64,000 bases of DNA. Source: Candidatus Multivoradales bacterium. GTDB lineage: Bacteria > Acidobacteriota > Thermoanaerobaculia > Multivoradales > JAHEKO01. Made by a program: the position numbers and the translations under genes. The notes under the pieces were generated by a model. The model was given only the letters and a program-made list of their open reading frames with translations, did no database searches and was not told the DNA's origin. Below are positions 20,915 through 57,437 of this stretch, piece after piece; within the stretch, counting starts at the first letter, position 1, and each line of letters opens with the position of its first letter. The stretch lies in assembly GCA_965223855.1 (NCBI GenBank), contig CBDCXM010000002.1, forward strand, positions 96,001 to 160,000, read 5' to 3'.

Positions 20915-22795
20915 TCAGGGAATGACGTTCGACCAGGCGCTGGTGTCGCCGGACTCGAAGCCGTCCTCGAAGATCTCGGCCGCGATGTCGACCATCGCCA
21001 TCGTCGTCTCCATGTCGTGCGGCGACGAGCGGTCGATGTTCTCCCACAGCCAGTAGAGGTACTCTCCGCGGCTGCGCTCGCCGGGGTCGAGCCCGATCGG
21101 CCAGCTCCATCCGGGCGAGCGGGTGATGCAGTCGTCGTCGAAGTTCTGGACGACGGCCTCGTTCTGCAGGAACTCGATGTACTCCTTGCTCGAGTTCTGG
21201 AACCGCAGTTCGACCGACACGGTCAGAGGACTGGCGGCGTCGCCCGGCAGCGGGATCGAGTAGTTGGTGATGTCGTAGTTGACGAGAACGCCGGAGCCGG
21301 GACTCGTTTCCGGGTAGGTGTATCCGACCGGCTGGGTTTCGAGATCGTCGCCACCCGTGAAGCCTAGCGGCGGGATTCGGTTGTCGAGCTTGATGCAGTC
21401 GTTGAGCACGAAGTGAAACTGTTCGACCCCCGAAGGATTGGTGTGGTCGCAGGTGTTCATGCCGTTGGCGTTCCAGATGCCGCGCTGGGTCTCGTAGACC
21501 TTGACGTCGGAGTCACGGGTGAGCTCGCCGGTCGACGGGTCGTAGGCACCGCTCTCGTAGATCAGGTCGTTGTCGTCGCCGCGGACCTCGACATGGATCC
21601 ACATCCGCCGCCCTTCGACGTAGCCGGTCGGCAGCTTGTGGCCGCTCAGGTTGGTGACCTTGACTTCGAGGTCGAGCGTGCCGCCGGGGGAGATCGCCGG
21701 CGGGGCCGTGAGTTCGAGGCTGGCGGCGCTCTCGAGCATCGCCTCGGCGCGGGCGATGGTGTCGGTGAAACCCGTACCGTTGTCGATCGTGGCGCCGTAC
21801 TGGTCCTCCAGCAGCGCCGGCACCCACGTGTTTCCGCCGACGAAATGGTGCTGCGGCATGTCGCCGGCGCGATCGATGTTCTCGAAGATGCAGGCGTAGG
21901 AATCGGGGTCCGTGGCGTCCGGCATGTGACAGTTCTGACAGGTCGCCTCCGCGCTGCCGCCGATCCGGTATTCGCTCTGATCCCACTCGTTGTAGGTGCG
22001 CTCGATCGGGTAGAGGATCCCGGTGTCGACGCCGCTCTCGTCGATCAGGGTGAGGACCGGGTTGGTCACGTTGTGACAGGTGGCGCAGATCTGCGAACCC
22101 TCGTGGTAGGCGGAATACGCCCACTCGTGCGGGGGCTCCGGCGGACTGGCGTAGTCGTAGGGGCCGTGGCGACACGGCTCGCTGCCGCCGGGACAGACCT
22201 CGTCGTCGATCCAGTACTCGGCGTTCTCGAGGTAGTTCCCTTCCTCGCCGGGCGGCGGTGAGTCGTTGATCACCATCCGATGGCAGAGGTGACAGGTCAC
22301 CCCCTCGAAGTCGTTGGCGGTCGTCTCGTCGATGTTGCCGACGAGGCCGCAGCCGTCGGCGTCACCGACGCCGATCACCATGCCGCCCTTGTCGGTCTCC
22401 GCACTTGCCCTACCGTCGAGCCAGGCCTTCGGAGCGTGGCAGCGCAGGCAGTATTCGCCGATTCCGGGAAGATCGGCGTTGGCGACGTCGAGGGCCGCCC
22501 AGAAGACCGGATCGCGAGTGGAGTTGGCCATCATCGACCCCGACCAGGTATTGAAGGGCTCGACGTCGTCCTTCTCGTAGTCGCCGTGACAGTTGCGGCA
22601 GAAGCCGGGGGCGGTGTACGCGTACTCGATCTCGAAGGTCAGATCGCCGGGCTGGGTCGCCCTGGGCGTGAAGGGGCCGGCGTCCGCCAGTGCCGACCAG
22701 CCGAGGACGGCGAAGAGGCCGCACAGCACCCCGAGGGCCCATGATCTGAGGATGGAACGGTGCCGTGAGCGACCTGAGTGCGATGCGTGCTGCAA
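20915..22795 (-). CDS. secreted pentaheme c-type cytochrome with C-terminal beta-sandwich domain and DGFESGD tail
   Basis: TTG start with GGGAGGGG RBS; signal peptide; CRNCH, CLRCH, CHLCH, CATCH, CQNCH; GHKLPTG; ends IFEDGFESGDTSAWSNVIP*. Confidence 0.88.
   Translation of the reverse strand: MQHASHSGRSRHRSILRSWALGVLCGLFAVLGWSALADAGPFTPRATQPGDLTFEIEYAYTAPGFCRNCHGDYEKDDVEPFNTWSGSMMANSTRDPVFWAALDVANADLPGIGEYCLRCHAPKAWLDGRASAETDKGGMVIGVGDADGCGLVGNIDETTANDFEGVTCHLCHRMVINDSPPPGEEGNYLENAEYWIDDEVCPGGSEPCRHGPYDYASPPEPPHEWAYSAYHEGSQICATCHNVTNPVLTLIDESGVDTGILYPIERTYNEWDQSEYRIGGSAEATCQNCHMPDATDPDSYACIFENIDRAGDMPQHHFVGGNTWVPALLEDQYGATIDNGTGFTDTIARAEAMLESAASLELTAPPAISPGGTLDLEVKVTNLSGHKLPTGYVEGRRMWIHVEVRGDDNDLIYESGAYDPSTGELTRDSDVKVYETQRGIWNANGMNTCDHTNPSGVEQFHFVLNDCIKLDNRIPPLGFTGGDDLETQPVGYTYPETSPGSGVLVNYDITNYSIPLPGDAASPLTVSVELRFQNSSKEYIEFLQNEAVVQNFDDDCITRSPGWSWPIGLDPGERSRGEYLYWLWENIDRSSPHDMETTMAMVDIAAEIFEDGFESGDTSAWSNVIP
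20918..20974 (-). repeat. C-terminal protein motif copy 1: IFEDGFESGDTSAWSNVIP
   Basis: Last 19 codons before the stop; shared with three other secreted proteins in the window. Confidence 0.9.
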
Positions 22796-22850
22796 TGGAA
22801 TCCCCTCCCGAAAGGGTTCGAGCCGAATGCCGGGAGGATAGCATCCGGCG

Positions 22851-23663
22851 GTGAGCGAGGATGTGACGACGGTCGCGAGGCGGGCGCTGATCCTCGCCGC
22901 CGGCCGCGGTTCGCGGATGAGCCGTGCGGACCCGGCGGCTCGCTTGACGACGCCTCAGCGTCGCGCCGCAGCCCTCGGTCTCAAAGGGCTGATGCCGGTG
23001 GCGGGCCTGCCGCTGCTCGAACACGCCGCACGACGCCTCGAGGCGGCGGGCATGGAGAGCCTGGCCCTCGTCATCCCGCCTTCGGGCGACGATCTGCGGC
23101 GCTGGGCGCAGGGGCGCCCGACTCCGATCGAGATCGTCGAGCAGGAAGAGCCGCGCGGCACCGCCGACGCCGTCTGTCGTGGCGAGGAGTTCGCAGACGG
23201 CGAGCCGTTCCTCGTCGTCAACAGCGACAACCTCTATCCGACCGAGGCACTCCGAACTCTGGCGGCTGCGACGCCACAGGCCGTCGTCGTCGTCGAGCGG
23301 CGTCGCGCCATAGAGGAAGGCTGGTTCGATGCCGCCAGGCTCGCGGACTTCGCCCTCGTCGAGCTCGGGGGCGACGGCGTGGTGCGATCGATCGTCGAGA
23401 AGCCCGGGCTCGAGACCCTTCTCGACGCTCCCGACCCTGCCTACTCGAGTGTTAACGCGTGGCGGTTCGAGAGCCCGATCTTCGAGCACTGCCGAGCCAT
23501 CGGTCCTTCGCCACGGGGTGAGTACGAGCTCCCTGATGCGGTCGCGCGTGCGATGGCTCACGGCGAAGTCTTCCGGGTCGTGCCGACGACCGGAATCGTC
23601 GCCGATCTCTCGACGAGGAGCGACGTTGCGAGGGTCGAGCGCCAACTCAGTGGGGATCTGTAG
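22851..23663 (+). CDS. sugar-1-phosphate nucleotidyltransferase
   Basis: LILAAGRGSRM, KGLMP, QEEPRGTADAV, NSDNLY, EKP and SPRGEYELPDAV. Confidence 0.88.
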   Translation: MSEDVTTVARRALILAAGRGSRMSRADPAARLTTPQRRAAALGLKGLMPVAGLPLLEHAARRLEAAGMESLALVIPPSGDDLRRWAQGRPTPIEIVEQEEPRGTADAVCRGEEFADGEPFLVVNSDNLYPTEALRTLAAATPQAVVVVERRRAIEEGWFDAARLADFALVELGGDGVVRSIVEKPGLETLLDAPDPAYSSVNAWRFESPIFEHCRAIGPSPRGEYELPDAVARAMAHGEVFRVVPTTGIVADLSTRSDVARVERQLSGDL

Positions 23664-28132: not shown

Positions 28133-28139
28133 CTTCAGC

Positions 28140-29420
28140 GTGGCAGCGATGTCGACGGCGACGAGGCGGCTGGCGACAAGCATGTCGCTGTCGGTCGCCG
28201 TTTCTCTGTCGTCCGTGACCCCCTCGGCCTCGCAGCAGGTCGCCCTCACGCTCCACGCCACAGGCTTCGACCGGGTGTCGGGGATCGCCCACGCCGGTGA
28301 CGGCTCGGGGCGGCTGTTCGTCGTCGAACGCGACGGACTCGTCTGGGCGCTCGACTCCGGCGGCCAGCGAGGCGTCGATCCGTACCTCGATCTCACGGAC
28401 CGGATTGGGGGGCCTGGCATGGAGCTGGGGTTGCTCGCCCTCGCCTTCGCGCCGGACTTCGAGGCCAGCCGGCGACTGTTCGTCGCCTACACCGACACCG
28501 CGGACGACGTCGTGATCTCGCGGTTCCTCGAGGATGCCGCCGACCCGGCGCACGCCGATCCCGACTCGGAATCGCCGGTCCTCGCCATCCCGCAGCCGAC
28601 CGAGCTTCACAACGTCCACCACCTCGCCTTCGGCCCGGACGGCTATCTCTACGTCGCCTCCGGTGACGGCGGCCCGGCCGGAGACCCGCTCGGCAACGCC
28701 CAGAACCTCGGCGTGCTGCTCGGGAAGATCCTGAGACTCGACGTCGACGTCGCGACCGGCTACTCGATCCCTCCCGACAATCCCTTCATCTCCGTGCCGG
28801 GAGCGCGTGCGGAGATCTGGGCGTACGGGCTCAGGAACCCGGCCGACCTCACCTTCGATAGCGACTCAGGCGACCTGATCCTGACCGACGTCGGCCAGGC
28901 CTCCTGGGAGGAGATCAACCGCCAGCCGGGGACGAGCGGCGGGGGAGAGAATTACGGCTGGCCGTTTCGCGAGGGCTTCGAATGTTTCAACCCGCCGACC
29001 GGCTGCCCGGCGGCCGGTTTCACTCCACCGGTGACGGTCTACCCGCATACCGAAGGACGGTGCGCGGTGATCGGCGTCGGGTGGTCACGCCTCGCCCCGG
29101 AACTGTCGGGCCGGGTCGTCTTCGGAGATTTCTGCACGGGGGGCCTGTCGACAGCCCGTCCCGGTTGTCTCGGATGGCGGCAGACCGAACAGGCCGAGGT
29201 CGTAGGAGGTCTCAGCGCCATCGGACAGGACGAGGCGGGAGAGATCTACGCAGCGGCATGGTCGACCGACGGGAGCGGGGAGTTGTGGCGTCTCGACGGC
29301 GTCACCGGGACGCTCTATGCAGACGATTTCGAGAGCGGCGACCTGGCGGAGTGGTCGGCGTGCCGGGGGGTCGATGCGCCGTCCGCCGAGGTCAGCGGAA
29401 GACGACGTCGATCCCCATAG
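28140..29420 (+). CDS. PQQ-dependent sugar dehydrogenase (GSDH beta-propeller) with degenerate DGFESGD tail
   Basis: AGDGSGRLFVVE, GLLALAF, FGPDGYLY, GDGG, LGKILR, AYGLRNP, DVGQ, EEIN and NYGWP; near the C-terminus LYADDFESGDLAEWS. Confidence 0.88.
   Translation: MAAMSTATRRLATSMSLSVAVSLSSVTPSASQQVALTLHATGFDRVSGIAHAGDGSGRLFVVERDGLVWALDSGGQRGVDPYLDLTDRIGGPGMELGLLALAFAPDFEASRRLFVAYTDTADDVVISRFLEDAADPAHADPDSESPVLAIPQPTELHNVHHLAFGPDGYLYVASGDGGPAGDPLGNAQNLGVLLGKILRLDVDVATGYSIPPDNPFISVPGARAEIWAYGLRNPADLTFDSDSGDLILTDVGQASWEEINRQPGTSGGGENYGWPFREGFECFNPPTGCPAAGFTPPVTVYPHTEGRCAVIGVGWSRLAPELSGRVVFGDFCTGGLSTARPGCLGWRQTEQAEVVGGLSAIGQDEAGEIYAAAWSTDGSGELWRLDGVTGTLYADDFESGDLAEWSACRGVDAPSAEVSGRRRRSP
29313..29357 (+). 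repeat. C-terminal protein motif copy 2 (degenerate): LYADDFESGDLAEWS
   Basis: Same spacing of aromatic, D, FESGD and WS residues as the other copies; followed by 20 extra residues. Confidence 0.75.
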
Positions 29421-29637: not shown

Positions 29638-32600
29638 ATGAGAGTTGGCAGCGCGTGGGCGGCAGCTGGAGTGGGAGCGACGATGATGGTGTTGCTCGCT
29701 GGTGCGATATCGGCACAGCCATCCCAGCTGGAAGTGATGCGCATCCATCCCAGCGGGGAACAGGTACCTTCCGGGCGCCAGGTCGTCGTTCACTTCAACC
29801 AGCCGGTCGTGCCGCTGGGGCGGATGGCACGCTTGTCCTCGGAGGTCCCGGCGACGATCACTCCCGATCCCGGGTGTGAGTGGCGCTGGCTGAGCACCTC
29901 CTCTCTGGCATGCCAACTTGGCGAGTCCAACGCACTCGCTTATGCCACAAAGTACCTTGTCGAGGTGCAGGCCGGCTTCACCTCGGCGACCGGAGCTGTG
30001 CTTCGGGAGGGGGTCGCCGAGCACTTCGAGACCGAGCGCCCTAAGGTTCGCTACCACCGTTTCGAGACCTGGCGCTCGCCTGGGATCCCTCGCGCTCGAA
30101 TCACGTTCAACCAGCCGGTCGACGCAGCTTCCGTCGCCCCGGCCGTCCGCTTCGAGACCGCCGGCGGGGCGGCGCGGACCTGGGTCCTGCCACCGGACGA
30201 CTCGGCGATCGGAAGCGGGGCAACCGAGGACGGCCGCACCTGGTGGGTGGAGCCGGTCCAGCCCCTCGATCCTGGGCAGGAGGTTCGGCTCACGATTCAC
30301 CCCGGTGTCCGCTCGCTTGTCGGTCCGCTCCCCGGCAATGAGGATCGGTTACTGGCGACGTTCTCGACCTTTCCCGAGCCGGAGTTCCTGGGGATCGACT
30401 GCCGCGACTACCGCGGCAACCGTCGCGAGTGGTCGCCGATCGCTTCCCGTCCGGCCGACGTCGGAGACGGGAGCGCAGGTTGCGACCCGCTCGGCGGCGT
30501 CGGGCTCGTCTTTTCTTCGCCGGTCACGGTCGAATCGCTGGCAAAGAGCTTGGAAGTGACCCCGCCGCTCGCCGGAGATCGCGAGGACTTCGATCCGTGG
30601 GACGGCGTCTACTCCTATTCGAGGCTCGGTCGCGCCTCGCGACGACACCGCTACGCCGTTCCGCTGCCCGTGGGCCTGGCCGCTATGACGCAGTACCGTC
30701 TGCGCGCTCGAGCTGCCGAGATCCTCGACGAGTTCGGTCGCCCGCTGCCCCGGGACATCGATTTCACGTTCACGACGGGACACCGCCGTCCCCGCTTCGT
30801 GCTCGACGATCCCGTCTCGACTCTCGAGGAGGGAGTCGAATCCCACCCGACTGGGGTGGTGACGAACCTAGACGGCATCGAGATCGACTTCCGCCGACGC
30901 AAGCCCGCCGGGTCGTGGACGAAGGGCAGCGAGCTCTTCGAGCTGCCCGCCGTCGTCGATGTCGCCTACCGCCACCCCATCCCGACGCGGGCTCTTCTCG
31001 AGGGTGGAGAGGGCGCTGTGGTCGGGCGGCTTCTCACGACCCCCTCCACCACCCAGGGGGGGCGCTGGTTCTTCTCGCAGGTCACCTCCTTCCAGGTGCA
31101 TGTGAAGGCCGGGTTCCACAACTCTCTCGTCTGGGTCACCGACCTGGCGTCTGGGGAGCCGGTGGAAGGCGCCTCCGTGGAAGTCTTCCTGTCCAGCTAT
31201 GCGTCGCTCGACGACGGAGAGGTCGTGGCAGCAGCCGAGACCGACGACAGCGGGCTCGCACATCTTCCGGGCACCGCGAGCCTCGATCCGGAGCATGAAC
31301 TCACCGCGAGCTGGAGGCACAGAGACGAGCAGCACCTCGTCGTGCGAGTCGGCGCCGGCGAGTCGATGGCCCTGGTGCCGCTCGCCGACGACTTCTCCGT
31401 TCGCGGCCGGGGCCCGAACCGGTCCTATCTCCCCACCTGGAGGCGACAGGCTCACGGCCACCTGGTGACCTGGGGCTTTACCGCCCAGGGGATCTACCGT
31501 GCCGGCGATACCGTCGAGTACAAGATCTACGTCCGCGAGGAAGGCAATCGCACTCTCGAGAGCGCCCCTGCCGGTCCCTACGGTCTCGAGGTGCGCGATC
31601 CGGCCGGGAAGGTGGTCCACCGGCGGGCGGATCTCGAACTCAACGAGTTCGGTGCCTTCGACGGGTCGTTCACACTGTCTCGCCAGGGAGCGGTCGGCTG
31701 GCACAGCTTTGAGCTGACCGCCGGCTTCGCTGCGGATCTCGGCTGGACGCCGCTGAGGATGCTGGTCAGTGACTTTGTGCCGGCCCCCTTCCGGGTTGCG
31801 GTCGATCTCGACCGCGAGCTCGTTCGCGATGGAGAGACCGTCGCACTGACGACCTCGGCGGCGCTGCACGCCGGCGGTCCCTACGTGCATGCGCCGACCC
31901 GCATCACGGCGCGTCTCGTACCGGGGCGCTTCCGCCCGGAGGATCCGCGGGCGACCGGGTTCCTCTTCGACACGGGGAGCGCCGAATCCGTAGCGCTGCT
32001 CCAGACAGAGCTCACCCTCGACGGTGAGGGCTCCGCTTCGACTGAGTTCACGGCGTCCTCGGGAGAGATTCTCTACGGACGACTCCAGGCCGAGAGTGCG
32101 GTTCAGGACGATCGGGGCAAGAGGGTCGCCTCGTCGGTGGAGGCCCGCTTCGCGTCCCGCGACCGCTTCGTAGGCATCTCGCAGTCGGACTGGGTACTGA
32201 AGACGGGCACGCCGGCCTCGGTCGATGCCTGGGTAGCGGATGAGCATGGCAACCTGCTGCCCGATCAGGAGGTCGCGTTCACCATCGAGAGGGAGGTCAC
32301 CCACGCCGCTCGCGTTCGGGGCGCGGGCAGCGCGTACCTGACGAGGTACGAGCGTTCCTGGGAGACGGCCGCCGCCTGCAGCGGCCTGACGACCGATGAG
32401 CCGGCGAGCTGCAGCTTCTCTCCTCCCCAGGCCGGCCGCTACCGCCTGACGGCGGCGATCGCCGATACGCGTGGTCGGCCCGTGTCGAGCACCCTCCATC
32501 GCTGGACGGTCGGAGCCGGGCGGGTTCTGTGGGAGGAGCCCCCCGGGCATCATCTCCAGATCGAGGCGGAAGCCTCCGTGCTCCGGGTCGGCGAGACGGC

Positions 32601-35364
32601 CAGATACCTGGTCAAGAACCCTTTCCCCGGCGCAAGAGCGCTCGTCACTCTGGAGCGGCTCGGCACCATTCGCAGCTGGACGACGACGTTCGAGTCTTCG
32701 AGCGAGCTGATCGAGTTCGAGGTCGAGCCCGATCTGCTGCCGGGCTTCTACCTTTCGGTCGTCGTCACGTCGCCGCGCGTCGCCCCGGCACCGCCGTCCG
32801 AGGGCGGCGTCGATCTCGGCAAGCCTGCGTTCCGCCTCGGGTACGCGAGGACCGAGGTTCGCGATCCGTACAAGGAACTCGACGTCGAGGTCACTCCGCA
32901 GGACGAGGTGACGAAGCCTCGGCAGCGGGTGCGGGCCGAGATATCGGTATCGACGCGGCAGGGTGAAACTCCTCCAGCCGAGGTCGCGGTCGCGGTTCTC
33001 GACGAGGCGGTCCTCGATCTCCTGAGCGCAGGCGAGGCGACGTTCGACCCCTATGTGGGGCTCTATCGACTCGCCCCGCTCGACGTTGCGAACTACAACC
33101 TCGTCAAGGCTCTGGTGGGTTGGCGCAAGATCGAGAAGAAGGGGGCCGACGCCGGTGGAGGTGGTGGAGGCGACGACCGGCTGCGTTCGATCTTCGACTT
33201 CGTCGCCTACTGGAACCCGGCTGTCGAGACGGACTCCAGCGGGCAGGCGACGATCGAGTTCGATCTGCCCGACAACCTGACCGGCTGGCGTGTCCTCGCG
33301 GTTGCGGCGACCCGTGGTGACCGGGTCGGACTCGGCTCGGCGAGCTTCCGAACCAATCTGCCGACGGAGGTGCGTCCCGCCCTGCCGAACCAGGTGATCG
33401 AGGGCGACGCCTTCGAGGCGCGCTTCACGGTGATGAATCGCACCGACAGCAGACGGCGGCTGAGGATCTCGGCGCGGGCGACAGGAGCCGTCGATGGAGC
33501 CCCCGCCATGGAGACGAGGATCCGGGCCGAGCCGTTCCAGCGGTACGTCGTGTCTTTGCCGATCACCACGACCACGCCGGGTGAGATAGGGCTCGAAGTT
33601 CGTGCCGGAGATCGCATGGACGAGGACGCGCTCACGGTGCACCTCCCGGTTCTCCCTGCGGCCTCGCTACTCACCGCTGCCGACTACGGCTCTCTGACAG
33701 GGACTTCCGACACGCGCACCGTCGCCTTCCCGGCCGAGATGCGCACCGATGTCGGCGCACTCGAAGTGACGGCCAGCCCGACGGTGATCGGCTCTCTCGA
33801 GCGCGCCTTCACCTACCTTCGCGACTATCCGTACTCGTGCTGGGAGCAGAGGCTGAGCAAGGGGGCGATGGCGGCGTACTTCCTTGCATTGCGCCCCTAT
33901 CTTTCGGAGGAGGTCGAATGGCCGGAAGCCGCTGCCGACTTGAAGCGCACCCTTGAGCGAGCGGCTGACTTCCAGGCACCGAACGGCGGGATGGTCTACT
34001 GGTTGCCGCTCGACCAGTATGCGAGCCCCTATCTTTCGGCGTACACGGCGCTGGTCTTCGGCTGGCTCGAGGAACTCGGTTACGAGCCTCCCGCCGCCGT
34101 CGAGGAGCGGCTTCACGAGTACCTTCGCACCTACCTGAGGAAGGACGTTCTGCCGGACTTCTACAGTCGCGGAATGAGTTCGACCGTGCGTGCGGTGGCC
34201 CTCGCGGCACTGGCCGCCGCCGATGACCTCGCACCCGAGGATCTGGAGCGCTACGCCGCTCACGTCGACGAGATGAGCCTGTTCGGCAAGGCGCACTACC
34301 TGCTCGCGGCCGCAGGGATCGGCGCGGACTCGGAAGAGAGACGTCGGGTCGTCGGGGCGATCCTCGATCACGCGCAGGAGAGCGCCGGCAAGATCGTCTT
34401 CTCCGAGCCGCTCGACGACGGCTACTCGCGCATCCTCCACTCCGAGTTGCGGACCCAGTGTGCCGTCCTCAGCAGCATCCTGGCGGAGCTGCCGGGTGAG
34501 AGGGTCTCACAGGTCGCACCGCGTCTCGTGAGGCACCTCACTCAGTCGCGCCGGCAGCGGCACCGCTGGGAGAACACCCAGGAGAACCTCTTCTGCGCCC
34601 GCGCTCTCTCCGCCTATGCGGAGCGCTTCGAGTCGGTATCTCCCGACATGAAGGCAAGGGCCTCGATCGGTGGCGCTCAGTTCGGCGAGGGGAGCTGGAG
34701 CGATTTCCGGGACCCCGCGCTCACCTTCAGTCGCCCGATCACCGTTCGAGATCCCGGGACCGAGGCGGCGGTGACTGTCGAGCGCGAAGGTGCGGGGCGC
34801 CTCTACTACTCGGTCAGGCTCGCCTGGGCACCTGCCGATCCCGGCCAACGCACCCACAATGCCGGCTTCGACGTTCGGCGCGAATACAGCGTCGAGCGGG
34901 AGGGAGGTTGGGAGCTGCTCGACTCTCCGGCGCTCTTGCGCCAGGGCGAGCTCGTCAGGGTCGATCTCTACGTCAGTCTGCCGGCCGCGCGCAACTTCGT
35001 TGTCGTCGAGGACCCGGTGCCGGGTGGCCTCGAGCCCGTCCAGCGCGAGCTCGCCACATCATCGACGATCGATGCCGACAAGGAACGTACCGGGATGCCA
35101 CCGAATGCGTTCTTCTTCACCCGTGACGACTGGCGCTGGTTCGGCTGGACGCGATGGAGCTTCTACCATCGGGAGCTGCGCCACGATGCAGTCCGCTTCT
35201 ATTCCGAGTACCTCCCGGCCGGCAGCTACCACCTGTCCTATGTCGCACAGGCGATCGCTCCCGGGAGCTTCCGGGCACTCCCCGTTCGGGCCGAGGAGAT
35301 GTATGACCCCGACGTGTTCGGAGCGGGGCTTTCGAGGCCGTTCGAGATCGAGGCTCTGCCTTGA
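29638..35364 (+). CDS. bacterial alpha-2-macroglobulin (MG2-domain protein)
   Basis: 1908 aa; GIYRAGD, LPDNLTGWR, thioester motif YPYSCWEQ, NTQEN, DPVPGG and AEEMYDP; directly upstream of pbpC. Confidence 0.93.
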   Translation: MRVGSAWAAAGVGATMMVLLAGAISAQPSQLEVMRIHPSGEQVPSGRQVVVHFNQPVVPLGRMARLSSEVPATITPDPGCEWRWLSTSSLACQLGESNALAYATKYLVEVQAGFTSATGAVLREGVAEHFETERPKVRYHRFETWRSPGIPRARITFNQPVDAASVAPAVRFETAGGAARTWVLPPDDSAIGSGATEDGRTWWVEPVQPLDPGQEVRLTIHPGVRSLVGPLPGNEDRLLATFSTFPEPEFLGIDCRDYRGNRREWSPIASRPADVGDGSAGCDPLGGVGLVFSSPVTVESLAKSLEVTPPLAGDREDFDPWDGVYSYSRLGRASRRHRYAVPLPVGLAAMTQYRLRARAAEILDEFGRPLPRDIDFTFTTGHRRPRFVLDDPVSTLEEGVESHPTGVVTNLDGIEIDFRRRKPAGSWTKGSELFELPAVVDVAYRHPIPTRALLEGGEGAVVGRLLTTPSTTQGGRWFFSQVTSFQVHVKAGFHNSLVWVTDLASGEPVEGASVEVFLSSYASLDDGEVVAAAETDDSGLAHLPGTASLDPEHELTASWRHRDEQHLVVRVGAGESMALVPLADDFSVRGRGPNRSYLPTWRRQAHGHLVTWGFTAQGIYRAGDTVEYKIYVREEGNRTLESAPAGPYGLEVRDPAGKVVHRRADLELNEFGAFDGSFTLSRQGAVGWHSFELTAGFAADLGWTPLRMLVSDFVPAPFRVAVDLDRELVRDGETVALTTSAALHAGGPYVHAPTRITARLVPGRFRPEDPRATGFLFDTGSAESVALLQTELTLDGEGSASTEFTASSGEILYGRLQAESAVQDDRGKRVASSVEARFASRDRFVGISQSDWVLKTGTPASVDAWVADEHGNLLPDQEVAFTIEREVTHAARVRGAGSAYLTRYERSWETAAACSGLTTDEPASCSFSPPQAGRYRLTAAIADTRGRPVSSTLHRWTVGAGRVLWEEPPGHHLQIEAEASVLRVGETARYLVKNPFPGARALVTLERLGTIRSWTTTFESSSELIEFEVEPDLLPGFYLSVVVTSPRVAPAPPSEGGVDLGKPAFRLGYARTEVRDPYKELDVEVTPQDEVTKPRQRVRAEISVSTRQGETPPAEVAVAVLDEAVLDLLSAGEATFDPYVGLYRLAPLDVANYNLVKALVGWRKIEKKGADAGGGGGGDDRLRSIFDFVAYWNPAVETDSSGQATIEFDLPDNLTGWRVLAVAATRGDRVGLGSASFRTNLPTEVRPALPNQVIEGDAFEARFTVMNRTDSRRRLRISARATGAVDGAPAMETRIRAEPFQRYVVSLPITTTTPGEIGLEVRAGDRMDEDALTVHLPVLPAASLLTAADYGSLTGTSDTRTVAFPAEMRTDVGALEVTASPTVIGSLERAFTYLRDYPYSCWEQRLSKGAMAAYFLALRPYLSEEVEWPEAAADLKRTLERAADFQAPNGGMVYWLPLDQYASPYLSAYTALVFGWLEELGYEPPAAVEERLHEYLRTYLRKDVLPDFYSRGMSSTVRAVALAALAAADDLAPEDLERYAAHVDEMSLFGKAHYLLAAAGIGADSEERRRVVGAILDHAQESAGKIVFSEPLDDGYSRILHSELRTQCAVLSSILAELPGERVSQVAPRLVRHLTQSRRQRHRWENTQENLFCARALSAYAERFESVSPDMKARASIGGAQFGEGSWSDFRDPALTFSRPITVRDPGTEAAVTVEREGAGRLYYSVRLAWAPADPGQRTHNAGFDVRREYSVEREGGWELLDSPALLRQGELVRVDLYVSLPAARNFVVVEDPVPGGLEPVQRELATSSTIDADKERTGMPPNAFFFTRDDWRWFGWTRWSFYHRELRHDAVRFYSEYLPAGSYHLSYVAQAIAPGSFRALPVRAEEMYDPDVFGAGLSRPFEIEALP

Positions 35365-37632: not shown

Positions 37633-40600
37633 TCAGGGAATCGTCGTCGACCATGCCGAAGTGTCGCCCGACTCGAAGCCGTCGCTGAAGATCTCGGTGG
37701 TCGGGACGGAGTCTCCGTTGGCGTCCAGCTGTCTCAGGTAGGCCAACAGGTCGGAGCGGGCGCCGGTCGAGAGGGCGAGCACCCGCCGATGAGGCTCGGC
37801 CTGAGCGAGGTCGTCGGGCGACGAGACGACGATCTCGTCGAGGCTGACGTTGGGGAAGCTCGCCGTCGCCTCCACAGTGACGGTGTTGCCCGTGCCGGGC
37901 GAGAAGGAGAGCCCTTCGACCCGGACCCGCAGCCAGTTCGTGTGACGCCATCTCGGATCGTTGCCGGGATCGGGCACCGTGACGGTGGAGCCGGAGCCGT
38001 TGACGCGCACCGAGAGGGTCGTGGCGCTCCAACTGCTCACCCGCAGCTCGATCGCCCCGACGCCGCCGGCACCGCCGTCGATTCCGGCGAAGTCGACCCT
38101 GGCGCCCTGATCGTTGAGCGCCATGTAGGCGCGCCCGTGGACGGTGTCGTCGTTGTTGAGATCGACCCAGGTGTCGACGACCGATGCCCCGCCCGCGGGA
38201 GTGCCGTCCTCGGCCGGAAGCACTTCGCCCCCGGCGACGACGAAGACGTCCTCGAGTGTCGGTGCGGAGCCGTCGTGAAGGTAGGGTGCGGAGGCGAAGA
38301 TTCCCAGTAGCGTCGGTGTGTCGATGCCGTCGAGCACGCCGCCGAGCCGCCCGCCGGAGGTGGTGCGCAGGGTGCCGACGTCGTGAAGGATCACCGTTCC
38401 CGTCGTGCTGTCGGTGAACTCCGAGCCGCTGTGACAGCCCGCGCAGCCTTCGGCGGCGAAGACCGCGCGCCCTGCCGCGGCGCTCGGTGTCAGGGTGCCG
38501 TTGGCGGCCCGATGAGGGCTCCTCGGAAGGGCCTCGAAGGTCAATGAGGTCAGGTAGTCGGCGAGAGCGTCGAGCTCCGCGCTCAGCCCCGCCTTGGGAG
38601 GGCCGAGAGGGTCGCTGGTGGCGTCGAAGTCGGCGTCCGACAGGAATCCCGAGCCGCCGAAGGCGAACCGGATGTCGTTCTCGAAATCCTGGATCTCGTC
38701 GAAGTTGGCGCTCCAGTGAACGTTGCCGTGTCCCATGCCGCCGCGGCCGTTGAGGGTGATGGTGTTCCTCAGACCCTCGCCGCGACCGGTGAAGTCCCAG
38801 ACACGGCCGTCCTCGCCGCCGTCGAGATGACAGGTGGCGCAGCTCAGGTAGCCCTCGGCGCTCATCCTCGGGTCGCTCGCGTCGTAGAACAGCGTCTTGC
38901 CGGCGAGCACTGTGGGCGGTAGCGCCTCGGTGGTCGACGTCGCGACCGTGCTCGAAGCCAGTGTGATCGAGCCCGACCGGAAGAGCGGGCCCGCGTCGAC
39001 GGCACTCGCGTCGCGCGACAGGAAGTTCTTCACGAAGACGCGCTCGGTGTCGGAGTCGACGCAGACTCCCTGCGGCGCTCTTCCCACTGCGAGCCGTGCG
39101 ACGAGGCCGCCCAGCCCCGAGTCTCCTCCCGAGCCGCCGGGCGCTTCGAGGGCATCGAGTACCAGCACCTCGTTGTTGCCCTGGAGGGCGACGAAGAGGT
39201 AGTCGCCGAGCGGCGAGAAGGCGAGACCGTGCGCGGAGTCGCTGTTGTCGAGATCGACGGCCCGATCGAGGGTGCCGGCGGTGAGATCGACCCTGATCGC
39301 GAGGTTGCGGACCGTGTTGTCCTGGTCGAGGTCCTCGGCGAAGAGCGGTCCCTTCTCGGCGTTCGGCTTGTTGGCGGTCAACCAGGCGGATGTGCCGTCG
39401 GGAGAGACGGCGATCGCAGTCAGGTAGTTGGCGGTGCCGCGGCCGGAGGCGGTGCCGTCGCGGTTCTCGTCGCCGCCGAACTTCGGAATCTCGATCGTCC
39501 GATTGAGCGTGAAACTCGTCGCCGATACCTCCCATACCTCCGCGTGGTCGGGGGGCGAGAGGAAGCGCGCTACGAGGATGCCGGTGCCGTCACCGGTGAC
39601 GGCGAGCGCCCCCGGCGTCGGTCCGAGCGACAGGGTCCCTGTGCGGCTGCGACTGCTCACCTCGTACCGGCCGAGCGCTCCGCTGCCGTGCTCCGAGACG
39701 TACATCGAGGCCCCGTCCGGCGACGGGGCCAGTGCGATCGGGGCGGCGCCGTAGTCGAGGCCGATCTCGTCGATGAGCCCTCCGGTCGAGACGTCGAGGA
39801 TGACGACGCGGTCGTCGTCGTGACAGGTGACCCAGGCTTCATCACCCACGACCGCCACCGATCGCGGATCGGCACACGCCGGAACCTCGAGCGCGCGCTG
39901 GAGAGTGTCGCTGTCGATGGCGGCCACGCTGTCGTTGTCGGGGTTCACGACCCAGGCTAGACGCCCGGTCGCGTCGCATCCGATTGGCGAGCTGGCAACG
40001 GGGAAGGGTGCCGAAGGGGGATCGAGCACCGTCACGGTCCGGCTCTCGGAGACGATGCTGCCTGCCGGATCGCGCGCCTGGACGGTCGCCCGGTAGTGAC
40101 CGGCCTCCGCGAAGACGTGGTTGGCGTTGCCCTGGCTCGACCATGGAGTCTTCGGAGAGCCGTCGCCGAAGTCGAACCGGAACTCGACCGAATCGCCGTC
40201 GGGGTCGTCGGCGGTGGCGAACAGGTTCGTCATGCCCCCCGGCTCGGCGGGGTAGTCGGCGACGTCGAAGCTGGTGATGTCGGGAGGCCGGTTGCCGCCG
40301 ACAGTCGATCCGGTGGAGAAGGTGAACGAATAGCCCTCGATACCGTTCCCTGCGGCGTCCTTGATTCCTCCGGCGGGGAGGACGACCTCGTAGGTGGTGT
40401 CGGCCGCCAGCGGTGCGTCGGGGGTGAAGGTCAGGACATCGTCGAAGGAGAAGGTGAGGCGCCCCGGGATCGGGCTCCCGCCGAGCGGGCGGACGATGAA
40501 GGTCGTCCCGTTGATGATGGTGAAGCTCTCGAGCGTCTCGTGGATCAGCAGAGTGATCGGCGCGCCCACGGGATAGCCGGTGCGGCCCGACTGCGGGATG

Positions 40601-41721
40601 TGATAGCCGACCGACGGGCCGCGGTCGTCCGGCGTCGACTGATGAGCCCAGATCGCCATCCCCTCGTTGGGGCCGATGCCGCCGGTGACGAGGAGGTTGC
40701 CGAGTGGCAGGAGGAACTGGCTCGTGTCGATGCCGACACCGCCGTCGTTGGGGCGGGTGACGTTGGCGCCATCGAGGAACAGGACGGAGTCGAAGCTCCT
40801 CATGTCGACCTTGTGCCCGCCCATGAAGGCGAACTCGTCCTGGAACTGGATGTACATCGACGCGTCTCCGGGGAGCGCCCGATCGGCGACGAAGCGCAGG
40901 TCGGAGGGGTCGCTCACGTCGACGACGCGGAAGCCGTTGCCGCCGACTCGATAGGGGAAGACGACATAGAGCTTGCCGTCGCCGCCCCACAGCTCCGGCC
41001 AGTACCCTCCCGGTCCGCCGGTCGTCAGGACATCGAGCAACACCGGGTCGGTCGGGTCGCTGACGTCGTAGGTCGCCACTCCGGTGCGGCTCTGGTCGGA
41101 GGCGAAGATCAGCAGATCACCGACGAGGAACGGATGGCCGATGACACCGGTCTCCCCGAGGTGGTCCCACGAGGCGAGTTCGTTGCCGTCGAGGCTGATC
41201 GTCGCGTCGCCACCGACCGTGCCGTAGCTCCAGTAGGTGTCGCCGACGAACCACGGCTGAAAGAGGCAGCCGCGGACCCCGGCGCAGAGGAGCTGCGGAA
41301 AGGTGGTGCGTTCGAGCGTACCGGGTCCGGTCCGCCTCCACGACCACGGAGCCTCGGGAGGCCAGTTCGAGCCGAGGACGAGGTAGTCGCCGCTCTTGAA
41401 GTAGCCGTGGGCGTTGATCGGCATCGGCGTGATGCCGTGGTTGGCGACTTCCACGGGACTGGTCGGGTCGGAGAGGTCCCAGGTACGGACCAGGAAGTCC
41501 GCTCCCGGCTGGCTGGAGGGCACCTCCGGCACCGTGAACAGCACGCCGTTGTGGTAGGCGAGAATCGCGGTCCGCCCCTGCTGCGGAGCGTTGAGGCCGC
41601 TCAGCACCTCGCCGGCCGTCTGAGGCACGTTGGGGAATCCCGGCACCACCGGCGGCTGAGCGGTCGCCGCGGTCGCCAGCGAGGCGAACACGACTCCCAG
41701 CAAGGCACGCGACCGGCGCAT
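37633..41721 (-). CDS. large secreted multidomain protein: beta-propeller + Ig-like + PKD + YncE-like propeller + diheme cytochrome c (peroxidase/MauG-like) + CBM-like insert + DGFESGD tail
   Basis: Signal peptide MRRSRALLGVVFASLATAATA; FDFGDGS (PKD); SCATCH, HWSANFDEIQDFE, CAGCH and PYLHDGSA; ends IFSDGFESGDTSAWSTTIP*. Alternative start 41796. Confidence 0.85.
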   Translation of the reverse strand: MRRSRALLGVVFASLATAATAQPPVVPGFPNVPQTAGEVLSGLNAPQQGRTAILAYHNGVLFTVPEVPSSQPGADFLVRTWDLSDPTSPVEVANHGITPMPINAHGYFKSGDYLVLGSNWPPEAPWSWRRTGPGTLERTTFPQLLCAGVRGCLFQPWFVGDTYWSYGTVGGDATISLDGNELASWDHLGETGVIGHPFLVGDLLIFASDQSRTGVATYDVSDPTDPVLLDVLTTGGPGGYWPELWGGDGKLYVVFPYRVGGNGFRVVDVSDPSDLRFVADRALPGDASMYIQFQDEFAFMGGHKVDMRSFDSVLFLDGANVTRPNDGGVGIDTSQFLLPLGNLLVTGGIGPNEGMAIWAHQSTPDDRGPSVGYHIPQSGRTGYPVGAPITLLIHETLESFTIINGTTFIVRPLGGSPIPGRLTFSFDDVLTFTPDAPLAADTTYEVVLPAGGIKDAAGNGIEGYSFTFSTGSTVGGNRPPDITSFDVADYPAEPGGMTNLFATADDPDGDSVEFRFDFGDGSPKTPWSSQGNANHVFAEAGHYRATVQARDPAGSIVSESRTVTVLDPPSAPFPVASSPIGCDATGRLAWVVNPDNDSVAAIDSDTLQRALEVPACADPRSVAVVGDEAWVTCHDDDRVVILDVSTGGLIDEIGLDYGAAPIALAPSPDGASMYVSEHGSGALGRYEVSSRSRTGTLSLGPTPGALAVTGDGTGILVARFLSPPDHAEVWEVSATSFTLNRTIEIPKFGGDENRDGTASGRGTANYLTAIAVSPDGTSAWLTANKPNAEKGPLFAEDLDQDNTVRNLAIRVDLTAGTLDRAVDLDNSDSAHGLAFSPLGDYLFVALQGNNEVLVLDALEAPGGSGGDSGLGGLVARLAVGRAPQGVCVDSDTERVFVKNFLSRDASAVDAGPLFRSGSITLASSTVATSTTEALPPTVLAGKTLFYDASDPRMSAEGYLSCATCHLDGGEDGRVWDFTGRGEGLRNTITLNGRGGMGHGNVHWSANFDEIQDFENDIRFAFGGSGFLSDADFDATSDPLGPPKAGLSAELDALADYLTSLTFEALPRSPHRAANGTLTPSAAAGRAVFAAEGCAGCHSGSEFTDSTTGTVILHDVGTLRTTSGGRLGGVLDGIDTPTLLGIFASAPYLHDGSAPTLEDVFVVAGGEVLPAEDGTPAGGASVVDTWVDLNNDDTVHGRAYMALNDQGARVDFAGIDGGAGGVGAIELRVSSWSATTLSVRVNGSGSTVTVPDPGNDPRWRHTNWLRVRVEGLSFSPGTGNTVTVEATASFPNVSLDEIVVSSPDDLAQAEPHRRVLALSTGARSDLLAYLRQLDANGDSVPTTEIFSDGFESGDTSAWSTTIP
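37636..37692 (-). repeat. C-terminal protein motif copy 3: IFSDGFESGDTSAWSTTIP
   Basis: Last 19 codons before the stop. Confidence 0.9.
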
Positions 41722-41809
41722 GCCGTCAGTCTGCCCTCGTGTCGCCGTGCCGGCAGTAACCTGCTTCACGCTCCGACGCGGGAGCGCCGCCGACATTGCG
41801 AGCTAGGTC

Positions 41810-42373
41810 TCAGCTGCCGCCGCTGACCTGAGCGCCTGCGGGGTAGGAAATGAAGAAGCCGTCCGCCCAGACGATGTCGCCGTCGTAGTTGGTGGAGATG
41901 AAGGGGCCGACCGTGTAGGTGGCTCCGGACGCTGCGAGATCGCGCGCCAGGCTGCGGATTCCGAGGGTCGGATAGTCCCCGAGGTCGCTCTGGTTGAGTC
42001 GATACTGGTAGGTGCCGCCCCAGCCGTCGTAGCGGGGCACACTCTGGATGTAGAAGAAGGTCGGGCTCTGGTAGAGGACGCTCTGGAGGTCGTCGGCCAG
42101 GAGGACGTCGCCGAAGTTGAAGTTGAAGGTCTGCGCTCCAGCGGCCGCCGCTCCCGCCTGGTCGGTCAGCCACGAGAACCAGGCGCCGCCGACCTGGCGA
42201 ACGTCGGTTACGGTCCGCTTCTGCTTGGCCTTCTGCAGCGAATCGAGCAGGTTGGGGATGAGGATCGCCGCGATCACGCCGATGATCGCGACGACGATCA
42301 ACAGCTCGATGAGCGTGAAGCCCCGGCCGGGCCGGGACGATCTCCAGTTGCTGAAGCTTCCTAGAGTTGGCAT
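41810..42373 (-). CDS. type IV pilin / GspG-like pseudopilin
   Basis: Prepilin cleavage site G|FTLIELLIVVAIIGVIAAILIP, AKQKRT and DGWG; GAGGAG RBS. Confidence 0.92.
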   Translation of the reverse strand: MPTLGSFSNWRSSRPGRGFTLIELLIVVAIIGVIAAILIPNLLDSLQKAKQKRTVTDVRQVGGAWFSWLTDQAGAAAAGAQTFNFNFGDVLLADDLQSVLYQSPTFFYIQSVPRYDGWGGTYQYRLNQSDLGDYPTLGIRSLARDLAASGATYTVGPFISTNYDGDIVWADGFFISYPAGAQVSGGS

Positions 42374-54918: not shown

Positions 54919-55004
54919 CGACACAGTCTAGCCCGGACTTCTCACAGGTGCCGTCTGTGCGGAACTTCACCCGTTCGGGCAACCGGTCGGTTTAGGCTCG
55001 GGAG

Positions 55005-57437
55005 ATGAACGCCGCGCGATCGAGGGTCTCTCGCCTGCTCCTGGCGTGTTTCCTGGGCGCGAGCGGGCTGCTCGCCGCCTCCTTCCCGAACGGATTCCAG
55101 GTCGATGAGGTTCTCGCCGACCTCGATTCGCCCGCGACCCTCGCCTTTTCACCCGACGGCCGGCTCTTCCTCGGCGAGCGAATCTCCGGTCGTCTGCTGG
55201 TGGCGAAGCGATCCGGGAACTCCTGGTCGATCAACGCGACGCCCTTCTACACGTTCGACATCCCCAAGGACGGCAACGGCAATCCGGTACGGCATCGCTC
55301 GTCCGGGCTGCGCGATATCGCCTTCGACCCGGACTTCGAGAGCAACGGCTTCGTCTACGCGTTCTACATGCGCAACAACCCGCGTCACAACCGCGTGGTG
55401 CGCATCCAGGCGAGCGGCGCCAATCCGGATGTCGCATTGCCCGGCTCCGAGGCGCTCCTGATCGACCTGCCGTTCAACAGCACCGGCTCGTCCGGCAGTC
55501 ACAACGGCGGAGCGCTCGAGTTCGGGGCCGACGGCAAGCTCTACATCAGCACCGGGGACGGCTGGTCGGGCGGCGACTCCGTGCAGACGCTCACCACCTT
55601 CACCGGCAAGTTGCTGCGGATCAACTCGAACGGCTCGATCCCGAGCGACAACCCGTTCTTCGACCAGGCGACCGGCCGCTACCGCTCGATCTACGGGCTC
55701 GGGCTGCGCAACCCGTTCTCGATGTCCTTCGATCCCAAGAGCGGTGAGCTGTTCGTCAACGACGCCGTCGGACCGGCGAAGGCGGACGTCTTCCTCGTCG
55801 AGGCTGCCGCCAACTACGGCCACCAGGGGACCGGTGGCGGAGGGGTGCCGCGCAACCCCTGGGCCAACGTCGGGGCGGCCGGTTCGCTCGTCACGGGAGG
55901 CGCCTGGTACCCGGCGTCGGGCTCCTTTCCTTCCGAATACGACGGTAGCTACTTCGTCGCTCTTTGGGGCAACAACGGCGCCTCCAACGATGGCGCCATC
56001 GGCCGGGTGCTCGGGTTCGGCCAGCCGACTACGGTCGGCTTCGGCACCGAGGTGCACAGCGGCGACCGCAAGCCGGTGCTGACGCGGGTCGATCCCGTCA
56101 CCGGAGACCTCTTCTACCTGCTCACGACCTATGAGACCGGCGCCGGCTCGATCGAGCGGGTTCGCTGGACCGGCCAGAACTCGGTCGCGACGCCGACCTT
56201 CGACCCGGCGCCCGGCCAGTACGACGATCCGGTGACGCTGACGATGGCGACGACGACGGCGGGAGCGACGATTCGCTACACGCTGGACGGTTCGACGCCG
56301 ACCGGCACCAGTACCCTTTACGTCGGCCCGATCCTCATCTCCCGCACGACGATCGTGAAGGCCCGGGCCTTCGCGCCGCCGCTGCTCGACAGCTCGGTGG
56401 CCGAGGGGTTCTTTCAGATCGGGCCGAGCATGAACCTGCCGCCGGTCGCCGAGGCGGGGCCGGATCAGGTGGCGGCAGTCGACGAGCTGGTGGTGCTCAA
56501 CGGGTCCGCGTCGACCGACCCGGACGGAGACGACGAGAAGATGAGCGAGGAGTGGGTACAGATCGCCGGGCCGCCGCTCGACTTCGTCGGTGACGACCTG
56601 GTCGCCTTCGTCACGCCCGAGGAGACCGGCTTCTATCGCTTCGAGCTGACGGTCTCCGACGGTGAGCTTGCGGATTCCGACACGACCGCCCTGACGGTGC
56701 TGCCGTGTCTCGACGACGTCCGCGACGGGCTCGTCGGTCGATGGTCGTTCGAGGAGGGCTCGGGGACCGTGGTTCTCGACAGCTCGAGCGGTGCACTCAA
56801 CGGCACCGTCGCCGGCGCGACCTGGAGCCAGCAGACCGCCGACGGGAGCGCCTGGGCGCTCGACTTCGACGGAGTCGACGATCAGGTCGACATGGGGACC
56901 TTCGATCTCGGCGGCTCGGCCTTCACCATCGCGCTCTGGATGCGCGCCGACGACTTCGGTCAGATGGACGGCCGCTTCGTCTCCAAGGCTTCCGGCGTGC
57001 AGCCCGACGACCACTACTGGATGGTGTCGACGATCCTGCAATCGTCCGAGACCCGCCTTCGGTTCCGTCTCCGGACCGGTGGTTCGACGACCACGCTGAT
57101 CGCCGGGTCCGGAGCGCTCGCCACCGGAGTGTGGACCCACGTGGCGGCCGTCTACGACGGCGCCGAGATGCGCCTCTACAAGGACGGCGTGGAGGTCGGC
57201 TCCACGCCCAAGAGCGGCGCCGTCGATACCGACCCCCTCGTGCCGGTCGCTTTCGGCGATCAGCCCGGCGGCACCCGGCCGTTCGACGGCCTGCTCGACG
57301 AGGTGCGGCTCTACGATCGAGCGCTGACGGTAGAGGAGCTCGCCGTGCTGGTGACCGGCGAGAGCGACTGCGTCGTGGTGTTCGCGGACGGTTTCGAGAC
57401 CGGCGACACTTCCGCCTGGTCGACCACCATCCCCTAG
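55005..57437 (+). CDS. secreted PQQ-dependent sugar dehydrogenase + Fn3-associated + PKD-like + LamG domains + DGFETGD tail
   Basis: HNGG.LEFGADGKLYISTGDG, GLRNPF, IRYTLDGSTP, PVAEAGPDQ, WTHVAAVYDG and DEVRLYDRAL; ends VFADGFETGDTSAWSTTIP*. Confidence 0.9.
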   Translation: MNAARSRVSRLLLACFLGASGLLAASFPNGFQVDEVLADLDSPATLAFSPDGRLFLGERISGRLLVAKRSGNSWSINATPFYTFDIPKDGNGNPVRHRSSGLRDIAFDPDFESNGFVYAFYMRNNPRHNRVVRIQASGANPDVALPGSEALLIDLPFNSTGSSGSHNGGALEFGADGKLYISTGDGWSGGDSVQTLTTFTGKLLRINSNGSIPSDNPFFDQATGRYRSIYGLGLRNPFSMSFDPKSGELFVNDAVGPAKADVFLVEAAANYGHQGTGGGGVPRNPWANVGAAGSLVTGGAWYPASGSFPSEYDGSYFVALWGNNGASNDGAIGRVLGFGQPTTVGFGTEVHSGDRKPVLTRVDPVTGDLFYLLTTYETGAGSIERVRWTGQNSVATPTFDPAPGQYDDPVTLTMATTTAGATIRYTLDGSTPTGTSTLYVGPILISRTTIVKARAFAPPLLDSSVAEGFFQIGPSMNLPPVAEAGPDQVAAVDELVVLNGSASTDPDGDDEKMSEEWVQIAGPPLDFVGDDLVAFVTPEETGFYRFELTVSDGELADSDTTALTVLPCLDDVRDGLVGRWSFEEGSGTVVLDSSSGALNGTVAGATWSQQTADGSAWALDFDGVDDQVDMGTFDLGGSAFTIALWMRADDFGQMDGRFVSKASGVQPDDHYWMVSTILQSSETRLRFRLRTGGSTTTLIAGSGALATGVWTHVAAVYDGAEMRLYKDGVEVGSTPKSGAVDTDPLVPVAFGDQPGGTRPFDGLLDEVRLYDRALTVEELAVLVTGESDCVVVFADGFETGDTSAWSTTIP
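57378..57434 (+). repeat. C-terminal protein motif copy 4: VFADGFETGDTSAWSTTIP
   Basis: Last 19 codons before the stop. Confidence 0.9.

What the first reader, a model, noticed from the sequence alone, without database searches (positions are those of the whole stretch)
20915..57437. Shared C-terminal 'DGFESGDxxAWS' tail on dispersed secreted redox enzymes: candidate undescribed protein sorting / surface-display system
Seen: four signal-peptide proteins from three unrelated families end in the same motif. They are the pentaheme cytochrome (IFEDGFESGDTSAWSNVIP*, 20918-20974), the giant diheme protein (IFSDGFESGDTSAWSTTIP*, 37636-37692), the PQQ dehydrogenase-LamG protein (VFADGFETGDTSAWSTTIP*, 57378-57434) and a PQQ dehydrogenase (LYADDFESGDLAEWS, 29313-29357). 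The genes are scattered on both strands, and synonymous codons differ between copies (the Ser of DTS is AGC, TCG or TCC), so conservation is at the protein level rather than a DNA repeat. Established: short terminal tags on diverse exported proteins mark sorting systems (LPXTG/sortase, PEP-CTERM/exosortase, GlyGly-CTERM/rhombosortase, T9SS CTD). This tag has no TM helix or basic tail and is far shorter than a T9SS CTD, so it fits none of them. From memory, similar 'IFxDGFE' tails occur on secreted proteins of Thermoanaerobaculia and some Gammaproteobacteria, but I know of no characterised machinery. Inference: it is a recognition strand for outer-membrane export or for docking onto a surface scaffold or pilus, here building an extracellular redox enzyme set.
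Basis: partly seen in the sequence, partly recalled or inferred. Interest (0 to 1): 0.9.

Follow-up and report, generated by a model that had tools for sequence, protein, structure and literature searches.

The report
Split-domain plug-and-socket secreted protein tag
About 90 unrelated exported proteins of this bacterium end in the same 19-residue peptide, which is the missing first piece of a lectin-like domain whose remainder is made as one separate exported protein, so the tail probably plugs into that protein to hold the enzymes at the cell envelope.

Summary
The tail is real and genome-wide: 95 profile hits, 86 within 5 residues of a stop, on 87 genes in 57 unrelated clusters. It is not redox-specific: 5 of 87 have CxxCH. 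The scan noted this tag before on other DNA, with no partner named.

New here is a candidate partner. The tail equals residues 1-19 of a Cip1/PL20-like jelly-roll domain that is complete in other proteins. The genome encodes one secreted protein (G000:C9:733682-734308) holding exactly the rest.

Among 161 class genomes, 21 of 22 with tails outside complete domains have this strand-less 'socket'. Of the other 139 only one does, and it proved to carry a divergent tail. Four sockets are fused to SLH domains and one to a dockerin.

A predicted complex scores 0.86 against a best control of 0.01, though split halves pass easily. The conserved Ca-site residues are divided between tail (Glu) and socket (Asp). 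Binding, location and anchoring are untested. A second split pair (PVEL tail, Ig-like socket) occurs in the same genome.

The parts
20915..22795 (-). Exported pentaheme c-type cytochrome (P0001), tail carrier; true start probably somewhat inside this ORF
   Evidence: 5 CxxCH
20918..20974 (-). 19-residue tail (donor segment); the last 32 residues were the partner in the complex prediction
28140..29420 (+). GSDH-family protein (P0004) with a degenerate tail; relatives in G341 and G131 carry the complete jelly-roll domain at this position
29313..29357 (+). Degenerate tail, 19 residues before the stop; no remainder of the domain downstream in any frame
37633..41796 (-). 1387-aa exported protein (LVIVD, Big_5, PKD, propeller, di-heme MauG-like; P0002), tail carrier
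37636..37692 (-). 19-residue tail
55005..57437 (+). Exported GSDH + Fn3-associated + PKD + LamG protein (P0003), tail carrier
57378..57434 (+). 19-residue tail. The predicted socket lies outside the window, at G000:C9:733682-734308 (-), P0006

Best explanation
The tail is a donor segment of a naturally split domain. An ancestral ~200-aa Cip1/PL20-like jelly-roll sat complete at the end of exported proteins. In part of this class it is split. Dozens of passenger proteins keep only residues 1-19. One abundant exported protein supplies the rest, starting right after its signal peptide. After export the tail pairs with the socket's last strand, buries its Phe and Trp, and completes a Ca2+ site (tail Glu, socket Asp). 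This attaches the passenger non-covalently, without cleavage, to a protein held at the envelope: by SLH domains in some genomes, and by glycan binding or a surface layer where it stands alone. Shown: homology, split point, co-occurrence, fusions, gene context. Predicted: the complex. Inferred: Ca2+, abundance, anchoring, and periplasm versus outer surface.
For: Complete domains begin with the motif: 180 of 205 internal domains by a strict pattern, and their first 19 positions repeat the tail's consensus. P0006 matches the remainder (phmmer E 1.3e-5; hhalign 97.9%, E 5e-13) and is the only strand-less copy found in G000. 43 of 154 relatives are signal peptide + strand-less domain, and none carries the motif. 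Profile on the same 161 genomes: 21 of 22 against 1 of 139; that one, G251, has a divergent terminal tail. Fusions: SLH in G273, G354, G369 and G302, dockerin in G263, and 8 of 9 hits of a 'longer' search carry SLH. The socket model (pLDDT 89.6) aligns from its first residue to 2ZZJ residue 21 (Z 16.3, rmsd 2.5, 174 aligned) and Cip1 residue 25 (Z 14.2, rmsd 2.7, 161 aligned). In Cip1 the skipped part holds strand 1 and the Ca ligands Asp5 and Glu7, and Asp206 is in the last strand (PMC3764139, passages). Tail Glu is invariant in 47 of 47 pattern-selected rows and in all 95-hit alignments shown; socket Asp202 is invariant in 58 of 58. Complex: 0.86, best control 0.01; mark reached by 116 of 157 solved and 2 of 215 mismatched pairs; runs agree in >=98% of contacts, partner pLDDT >=76. 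Socket gene is 31st of 3220 by ribosomal-like codon bias and lies within about 7.5 kb of sulfatase-like or glycosyltransferase genes in 17 of 20 genomes, against 16.7% of G000 genes. A parallel pair exists whose socket often has a lipobox.
Against: No binding or localisation data. Halves of a split domain pass the complex test by likeness to solved folds, so the score is not independent of the homology. An AlphaFold2 model of a complete domain did not place residues 1-20 with confidence (pLDDT about 52; its alignment mixed in signal peptides). G386 has 14 profile hits, most of them terminal, and no socket in three searches (93% complete, 180 contigs). G124, G230, G055 and G130 have single terminal tails and no socket, and 2 of 5 further tail-bearing genomes had no hit. 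The G000 socket has no SLH, TM helix or lipobox, and G000 has no SLH hit, so its anchor is unknown. The genomes are kin, so the counts overstate independence. The codon proxy is weak: only 12 of 25 reference genes rank in the top 100.
Confidence: 0.68

Rival explanations
1. The same tail-socket complex forms, but the socket is a secretion pilot or chaperone. The completed domain is a folded signal read by the type II secretion machine, and passengers are released, not retained.
For: 15 of 22 sockets stand alone with no anchor; secretins are present in every genome tested; the complete domain is often the last domain of exported proteins.
Against: SLH and dockerin fusions, location among surface-glycan genes rather than secretion genes, and a lipobox on many sockets of the parallel system point to retention.
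Confidence: 0.16
2. The tail is read by something else (secretin, pilus tip, outer-membrane barrel, protease). The strand-less protein is a co-inherited by-product of the same domain family.
For: Tails without a detectable socket in G386, G124, G230, G055, G130. No whole-proteome profile was possible, so other co-occurring genes are not excluded.
Against: The split point is exact and there is no overlap between tail and socket; near-perfect co-occurrence; no recurring neighbour beside tagged genes in the fetched loci; the motif also occurs right after signal peptides, which argues against a free-terminus or protease signal.
Confidence: 0.09
3. The tail is a vestige of repeated truncation of a dispensable C-terminal domain, or a small stand-alone Ca-binding cap, with no partner.
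For: GSDH relatives exist both with the full domain and with the tail only; the fourth window copy is decayed; stray tails occur in socket-free genomes.
Against: 80 copies on unrelated proteins end at the same distance, with synonymous but not amino-acid divergence; a single-copy complement is kept in 21 of 22 genomes.
Confidence: 0.07

Closest known systems
Cohesin-dockerin systems (cellulosome; recalled, and seen in search listing)
   Same: Many exported enzymes share a terminal docking module that binds an envelope-anchored partner, often via SLH domains, with Ca2+ involved; one socket here is fused to a dockerin.
   Different: The plug is a 19-residue strand, not a folded dockerin; the socket is an incomplete jelly-roll; no tandem strand-less scaffold was seen; no Pfam dockerin or cohesin match for tail or socket.
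Donor-strand complementation in chaperone-usher and type V pili (recalled); PilC/PilY1 C-terminal tail beta-augmentation (PMC13711793, abstract)
   Same: A terminal peptide completes or extends a partner's beta-sheet without covalent chemistry.
   Different: One socket serves about 90 unrelated passengers; sockets carry no donor of their own (0 of 43), so no polymer forms by this route; jelly-roll rather than Ig or pilin fold.
Tripartite C-terminal sorting signals (LPXTG, PEP-CTERM, GlyGly-CTERM, MYXO-CTERM; 10.1101/2023.06.07.544157, passages)
   Same: Short motif at the C-terminus of many signal-peptide proteins in one genome, co-occurring with one dedicated gene that often sits in polysaccharide loci.
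   Different: No TM helix or basic cluster; the cognate gene is not a protease; the motif also works near the N-terminus by position.
Cip1 (3ZYP), PL20 glucuronan lyase (2ZZJ), X122 domains (PMC3764139, PMC10916295; passages)
   Same: Fold; N-terminal D-x-F-E loop and C-terminal Asp that build a structural Ca site.
   Different: Those are single chains; no sequence-level match; here the domain is split between genes; no activity is implied.

Membership tests
Tripartite C-terminal sorting signals | Signature motif near the C-terminus of many signal-peptide proteins of one genome | tested here: met
Tripartite C-terminal sorting signals | Transmembrane helix after the motif | tested here: not met
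   81 terminal tails: mean hydropathy -0.14, maximum 0.30
Tripartite C-terminal sorting signals | Basic cluster at the end | tested here: not met
   K or R in the last five residues in 5 of 81
Tripartite C-terminal sorting signals | Cognate sortase, exosortase or rhomboid that cleaves the tag | not tested
   No family search for such proteases was run; no NCBIfam model matched any of 47 tails
T9SS C-terminal domain | Folded domain of about 70-80 residues (recalled) matching the Por secretion tail models | tested here: not met
   Tail is 19 residues; no Pfam or NCBIfam match
T9SS C-terminal domain | T9SS machinery in the genome | not tested
   not searched
Cohesin-dockerin | Dockerin domain on the passengers | tested here: not met
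   No Dockerin_1 hit on 4 window proteins, 40 sampled passengers or 47 tails
Cohesin-dockerin | Cohesin as receptor | tested here: inconclusive
   No Pfam cohesin hit for P0006; best folds are PL20 and Cip1; a family missing from the list is not excluded
Cohesin-dockerin | Receptor anchored to the envelope | tested here: inconclusive
   SLH in 4 of 22 sockets; no anchor seen in G000
Donor-strand complementation pili | Acceptor with an incomplete beta-sandwich | tested here: met
Donor-strand complementation pili | Missing strand supplied in trans | tested here: inconclusive
   Predicted only, and split halves pass by likeness
Donor-strand complementation pili | Each subunit is both donor and acceptor, forming a fibre | tested here: not met
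   0 of 43 strand-less proteins carry the motif
Cip1/PL20/X122-like jelly-roll | Fold | tested here: met
   Z 16.3 and 14.2; Z 16.8 and 14.8 for a complete domain
Cip1/PL20/X122-like jelly-roll | Bound Ca2+ between the N-terminal loop and the last strand | not testable with these tools
   Ligand-type residues are invariant; no ion was modelled
Cip1/PL20/X122-like jelly-roll | Detectable sequence homology to solved members | tested here: inconclusive
   Only chance-level hits with one query

The most novel reading that the evidence does not exclude
These Acidobacteriota run a general, enzyme-free protein display code built from split domains. An abundant strand-less jelly-roll, possibly the surface-layer subunit itself, captures about 90 passengers by Ca-dependent strand complementation. 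A second, orthogonal pair (PVEL tail and Ig-like lipoprotein socket) captures another set. Such natural tag-catcher pairs could explain other short orphan tails on secreted proteins.
Probability: 0.45. Interest if true: 0.93.

Novelty: categorically new. Interest (0 to 1): 0.86.

Why it matters
Known prokaryotic C-terminal sorting tags are cut by a protease or are folded domains. Here a short tag appears to be read by completing another protein's fold, with one gene serving about 2.5% of the called genes (87 of 3561). It names a concrete, small, soluble partner for an orphan tag, so the question can be tested in E. coli with two constructs. It also suggests a search rule for other orphan tails (look for the same domain minus that strand), which gave a second pair in this genome at once. 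It may supply a new peptide-catcher pair for engineering.

Tried and rejected
Secretins as the discriminating machinery: 50 of 50 genomes have one. Recurring neighbours of tagged genes: only common families (kinase-like 10 loci, ECF sigma 8, ABC 6) across the 146 loci then held, and none in G000. Machinery beside stray tails in tail-poor genomes: none, except a socket directly downstream of a tagged gene in G131. SLH as a universal anchor: 7 of 34 genomes, none in G000. AlphaFold2 of a complete domain to show the segment in cis: inconclusive, residues 1-20 at low confidence. PDB sequence search: chance hits only. Plasmid search: no match. Metagenome locus scan could not run on the alignment. 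RNA: no RNA holder listed. A loose DNA pattern in five genomes was not above its control for G251. ESM Atlas: nearest clusters are unnamed Acidobacteriota proteins (0.95); PF21340 on 48% of one cluster is a lead only. Literature: no paper on the motif or such a system in searches ('DGFESG': 0 papers) and 111; subscription papers are mostly not covered and no supplements were read. Gene calls and signal peptides come from my own scripts, not standard predictors.
Full report
OBSERVATION. Three end exactly at the stop; the fourth (29313-29357) is decayed and 19 residues from the end. The window is G000:C2:96001-160000. A profile built from 80 exact copies finds 95 hits at 15 bits or more in all six frames, 86 of them within 5 residues of a stop; the best score on reversed segments is 10.8. 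Serine codons vary between AGY and TCN, so the constraint is on protein. With tails removed, the 87 called genes with a near-terminal tail fall into 57 BLAST clusters. 78 of 87 pass a crude signal-peptide rule, against 41% of other genes and 0 of 35 translation and transcription genes; 77 also lack later TM segments. Three copies lie near N-termini, two directly behind a signal peptide.

PASSENGERS. They are not a redox set. 5 of 87 carry CxxCH. In a sample of 40 of the 83 non-window genes (every second one), Pfam gave 9 FG-GAP, 4 BNR/sortilin, 2 peptidases, one each of GDSL, lactonase, ThuA and GSDH, several others, and 15 with no family. The window happens to be rich in redox passengers.

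RANGE. That G000 belongs to this class is my inference. In 251 phylum genomes, counts above 5 occur only in the own class. In 161 class genomes 23 match, with 1 to 96 copies, patchily even within a genus. One negative genome in these tallies, G024, is unpublished.

THE TAIL IS THE START OF A DOMAIN. In G341, relatives of the window's GSDH proteins continue past the motif into a complete domain of about 185 residues; G131 has several more. Among 154 relatives, 180 of 205 internal domains are preceded by the motif under a strict pattern, and most of the rest by a degenerate form. Positions 1-19 of 130 complete domains repeat the tail's consensus. Two earlier notes of the scan had said this; I confirmed it.

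THE REST OF THE DOMAIN IS A SEPARATE GENE. Searching G000 with the domain minus its first 18 residues found one gene, P0006 at C9:733682-734308 (hhalign E 5e-13). It is a signal peptide followed directly by strand 2. It is the only such copy found; one decayed complete domain also exists. 43 of the 154 relatives have this build, and none carries the motif. Neither tail nor socket matches Pfam or NCBIfam. The socket model (pLDDT 89.6) aligns from residue 1 to residue 21 of PL20 lyase 2ZZJ (Z 16.3) and residue 25 of Cip1 (Z 14.2). In Cip1 the skipped stretch is strand Ile2-Asp4 and loop Phe6-Trp15; Asp5, Glu7, Ser37, Asn40 and Asp206 bind a structural Ca2+ (PMC3764139, passages). The tail's Glu and the socket's Asp202 (58 of 58) correspond by position; Ca binding is inferred.

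CO-OCCURRENCE. The same 161 genomes searched with a tail-free profile gave 24 hits. I read the open frames. G341 has only complete domains, which account for its two pattern hits, and G381 has only a complete one. Of the other 22 pattern-positive genomes, 21 have a strand-less socket (G358's is frameshifted in the assembly). I did not check in each of them that the tails are terminal. G386 has tails and no socket (93% complete, 180 contigs). Of the 139 remaining genomes only G251 has a socket, and a profile search, run on 5 genomes only, found one divergent terminal tail there. Outside the class, single tails in G124, G230, G055 and G130 have no socket. Of five more tail-bearing genomes three had sockets and two had no hit; the tail loci of those two are on contigs of 2-4 kb. 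Kin are not independent, so I give no p-value.

COMPLEX. The last 32 residues of P0001 with P0006 residues 26-208 scored 0.86 against a best control of 0.01. The mark was reached by 116 of 157 solved and 2 of 215 mismatched pairs; the runs agree in at least 98% of contacts; partner pLDDT is at least 76. The tail's first strand pairs with socket residues 204-207, its second Phe packs on 31, 42, 43 and 202, and its Trp on 56-58. This is the expected intramolecular position. Split halves pass by likeness to solved folds, so the result shows fit, not binding. A monomer model of a complete domain left residues 1-20 uncertain, which is inconclusive.

WHAT HOLDS THE SOCKET. Of 22 sockets, 15 stand alone, 2 have an insertion, 4 are fused to SLH and 1 to a dockerin; 8 of 9 longer homologues carry SLH. 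Socket genes lie near sulfatase-like or glycosyltransferase genes in 17 of 20 genomes, against 16.7% of G000 genes and 12 of 90 tagged genes; this may be inherited synteny. P0006 ranks 31 of 3220 by ribosomal-like codon bias, tagged genes median 1401, a weak hint of abundance. G000 has no SLH hit, so glycan binding or a surface layer is a guess. Periplasm versus outer surface is open.

A SECOND PAIR. 13 small exported proteins end in a PVELxxFx(V/I)(D/E)-type tail. From memory this is the first strand of an Ig/Fn3-like domain. G000 encodes a secreted strand-less remainder (C8:12663-13238), also among glycan genes. All 9 class genomes with this tail pattern have a close homologue, as do 3 without it among 51 searched; 7 of those 12 show a lipobox-like cysteine by eye. 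No complex was predicted for it.

MECHANISM. Most likely the passengers are exported, their tail completes the socket's fold and Ca site, and they are thereby retained at the envelope (0.68). Rivals: secretion pilot (0.16), another reader (0.09), vestige (0.07).

NOVELTY. It works like cohesin-dockerin docking and uses the chemistry of donor-strand complementation, but fails membership tests for those and for tripartite sorting signals. My searches found no paper on it. The scan had noted the tag on other DNA; a look-up with the socket's sequence and one with its description returned nothing. Papers seen: PMC3764139, PMC10916295 and 10.1101/2023.06.07.544157 as passages, PMC13711793 as abstract and outline, no supplements.

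Noticed in passing
G000, 13 genes (e.g. C8:534117, C9:433353) and C8:12663-13238 (L230:4663-5238): Second split pair: PVEL-type tail on small exported proteins and a strand-less Ig-like socket; 9 of 9 tail genomes have the socket, often with a lipobox. A more distant paralogue lies at C9:864913.
   Followed up: partly
G000:C9:748651-749562 and C9:2463250-2464269; L259 (G386): The motif sits directly after the signal peptide in front of unrelated domains, so it need not be C-terminal.
   Followed up: partly
G000:C9:2131011-2131877 (L148): Decayed complete jelly-roll domain, starting with the motif.
   Followed up: partly
window 41810-42373 (-): Type IV pilin-like gene (GFTLIELL motif by eye) directly upstream of the di-heme passenger, with a close paralogue at G000:C9:1390676.
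   Followed up: no
window 29638-37580 (+): 1908-aa ORF and a following 739-aa ORF that look, by eye and from memory, like an alpha-2-macroglobulin and PbpC pair; not scanned.
   Followed up: no
G000:C9:1413502-1423637 and C9:1810622-1818885: Two secretin clusters, one T2SS-like and one pilMNOPQ-like by eye, the second followed by three small exported or lipoprotein genes.
   Followed up: partly
   Followed up: no
G390 (L269-L277): One genome holds many complete domains in tandem, free tails and a stand-alone socket together, a possible transitional state.
   Followed up: partly
L196/L208 (G358); L204 (G306): The only socket of tail-rich G358 and a second copy in G306 are frameshifted in the assemblies; error or real was not tested.
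   Followed up: no
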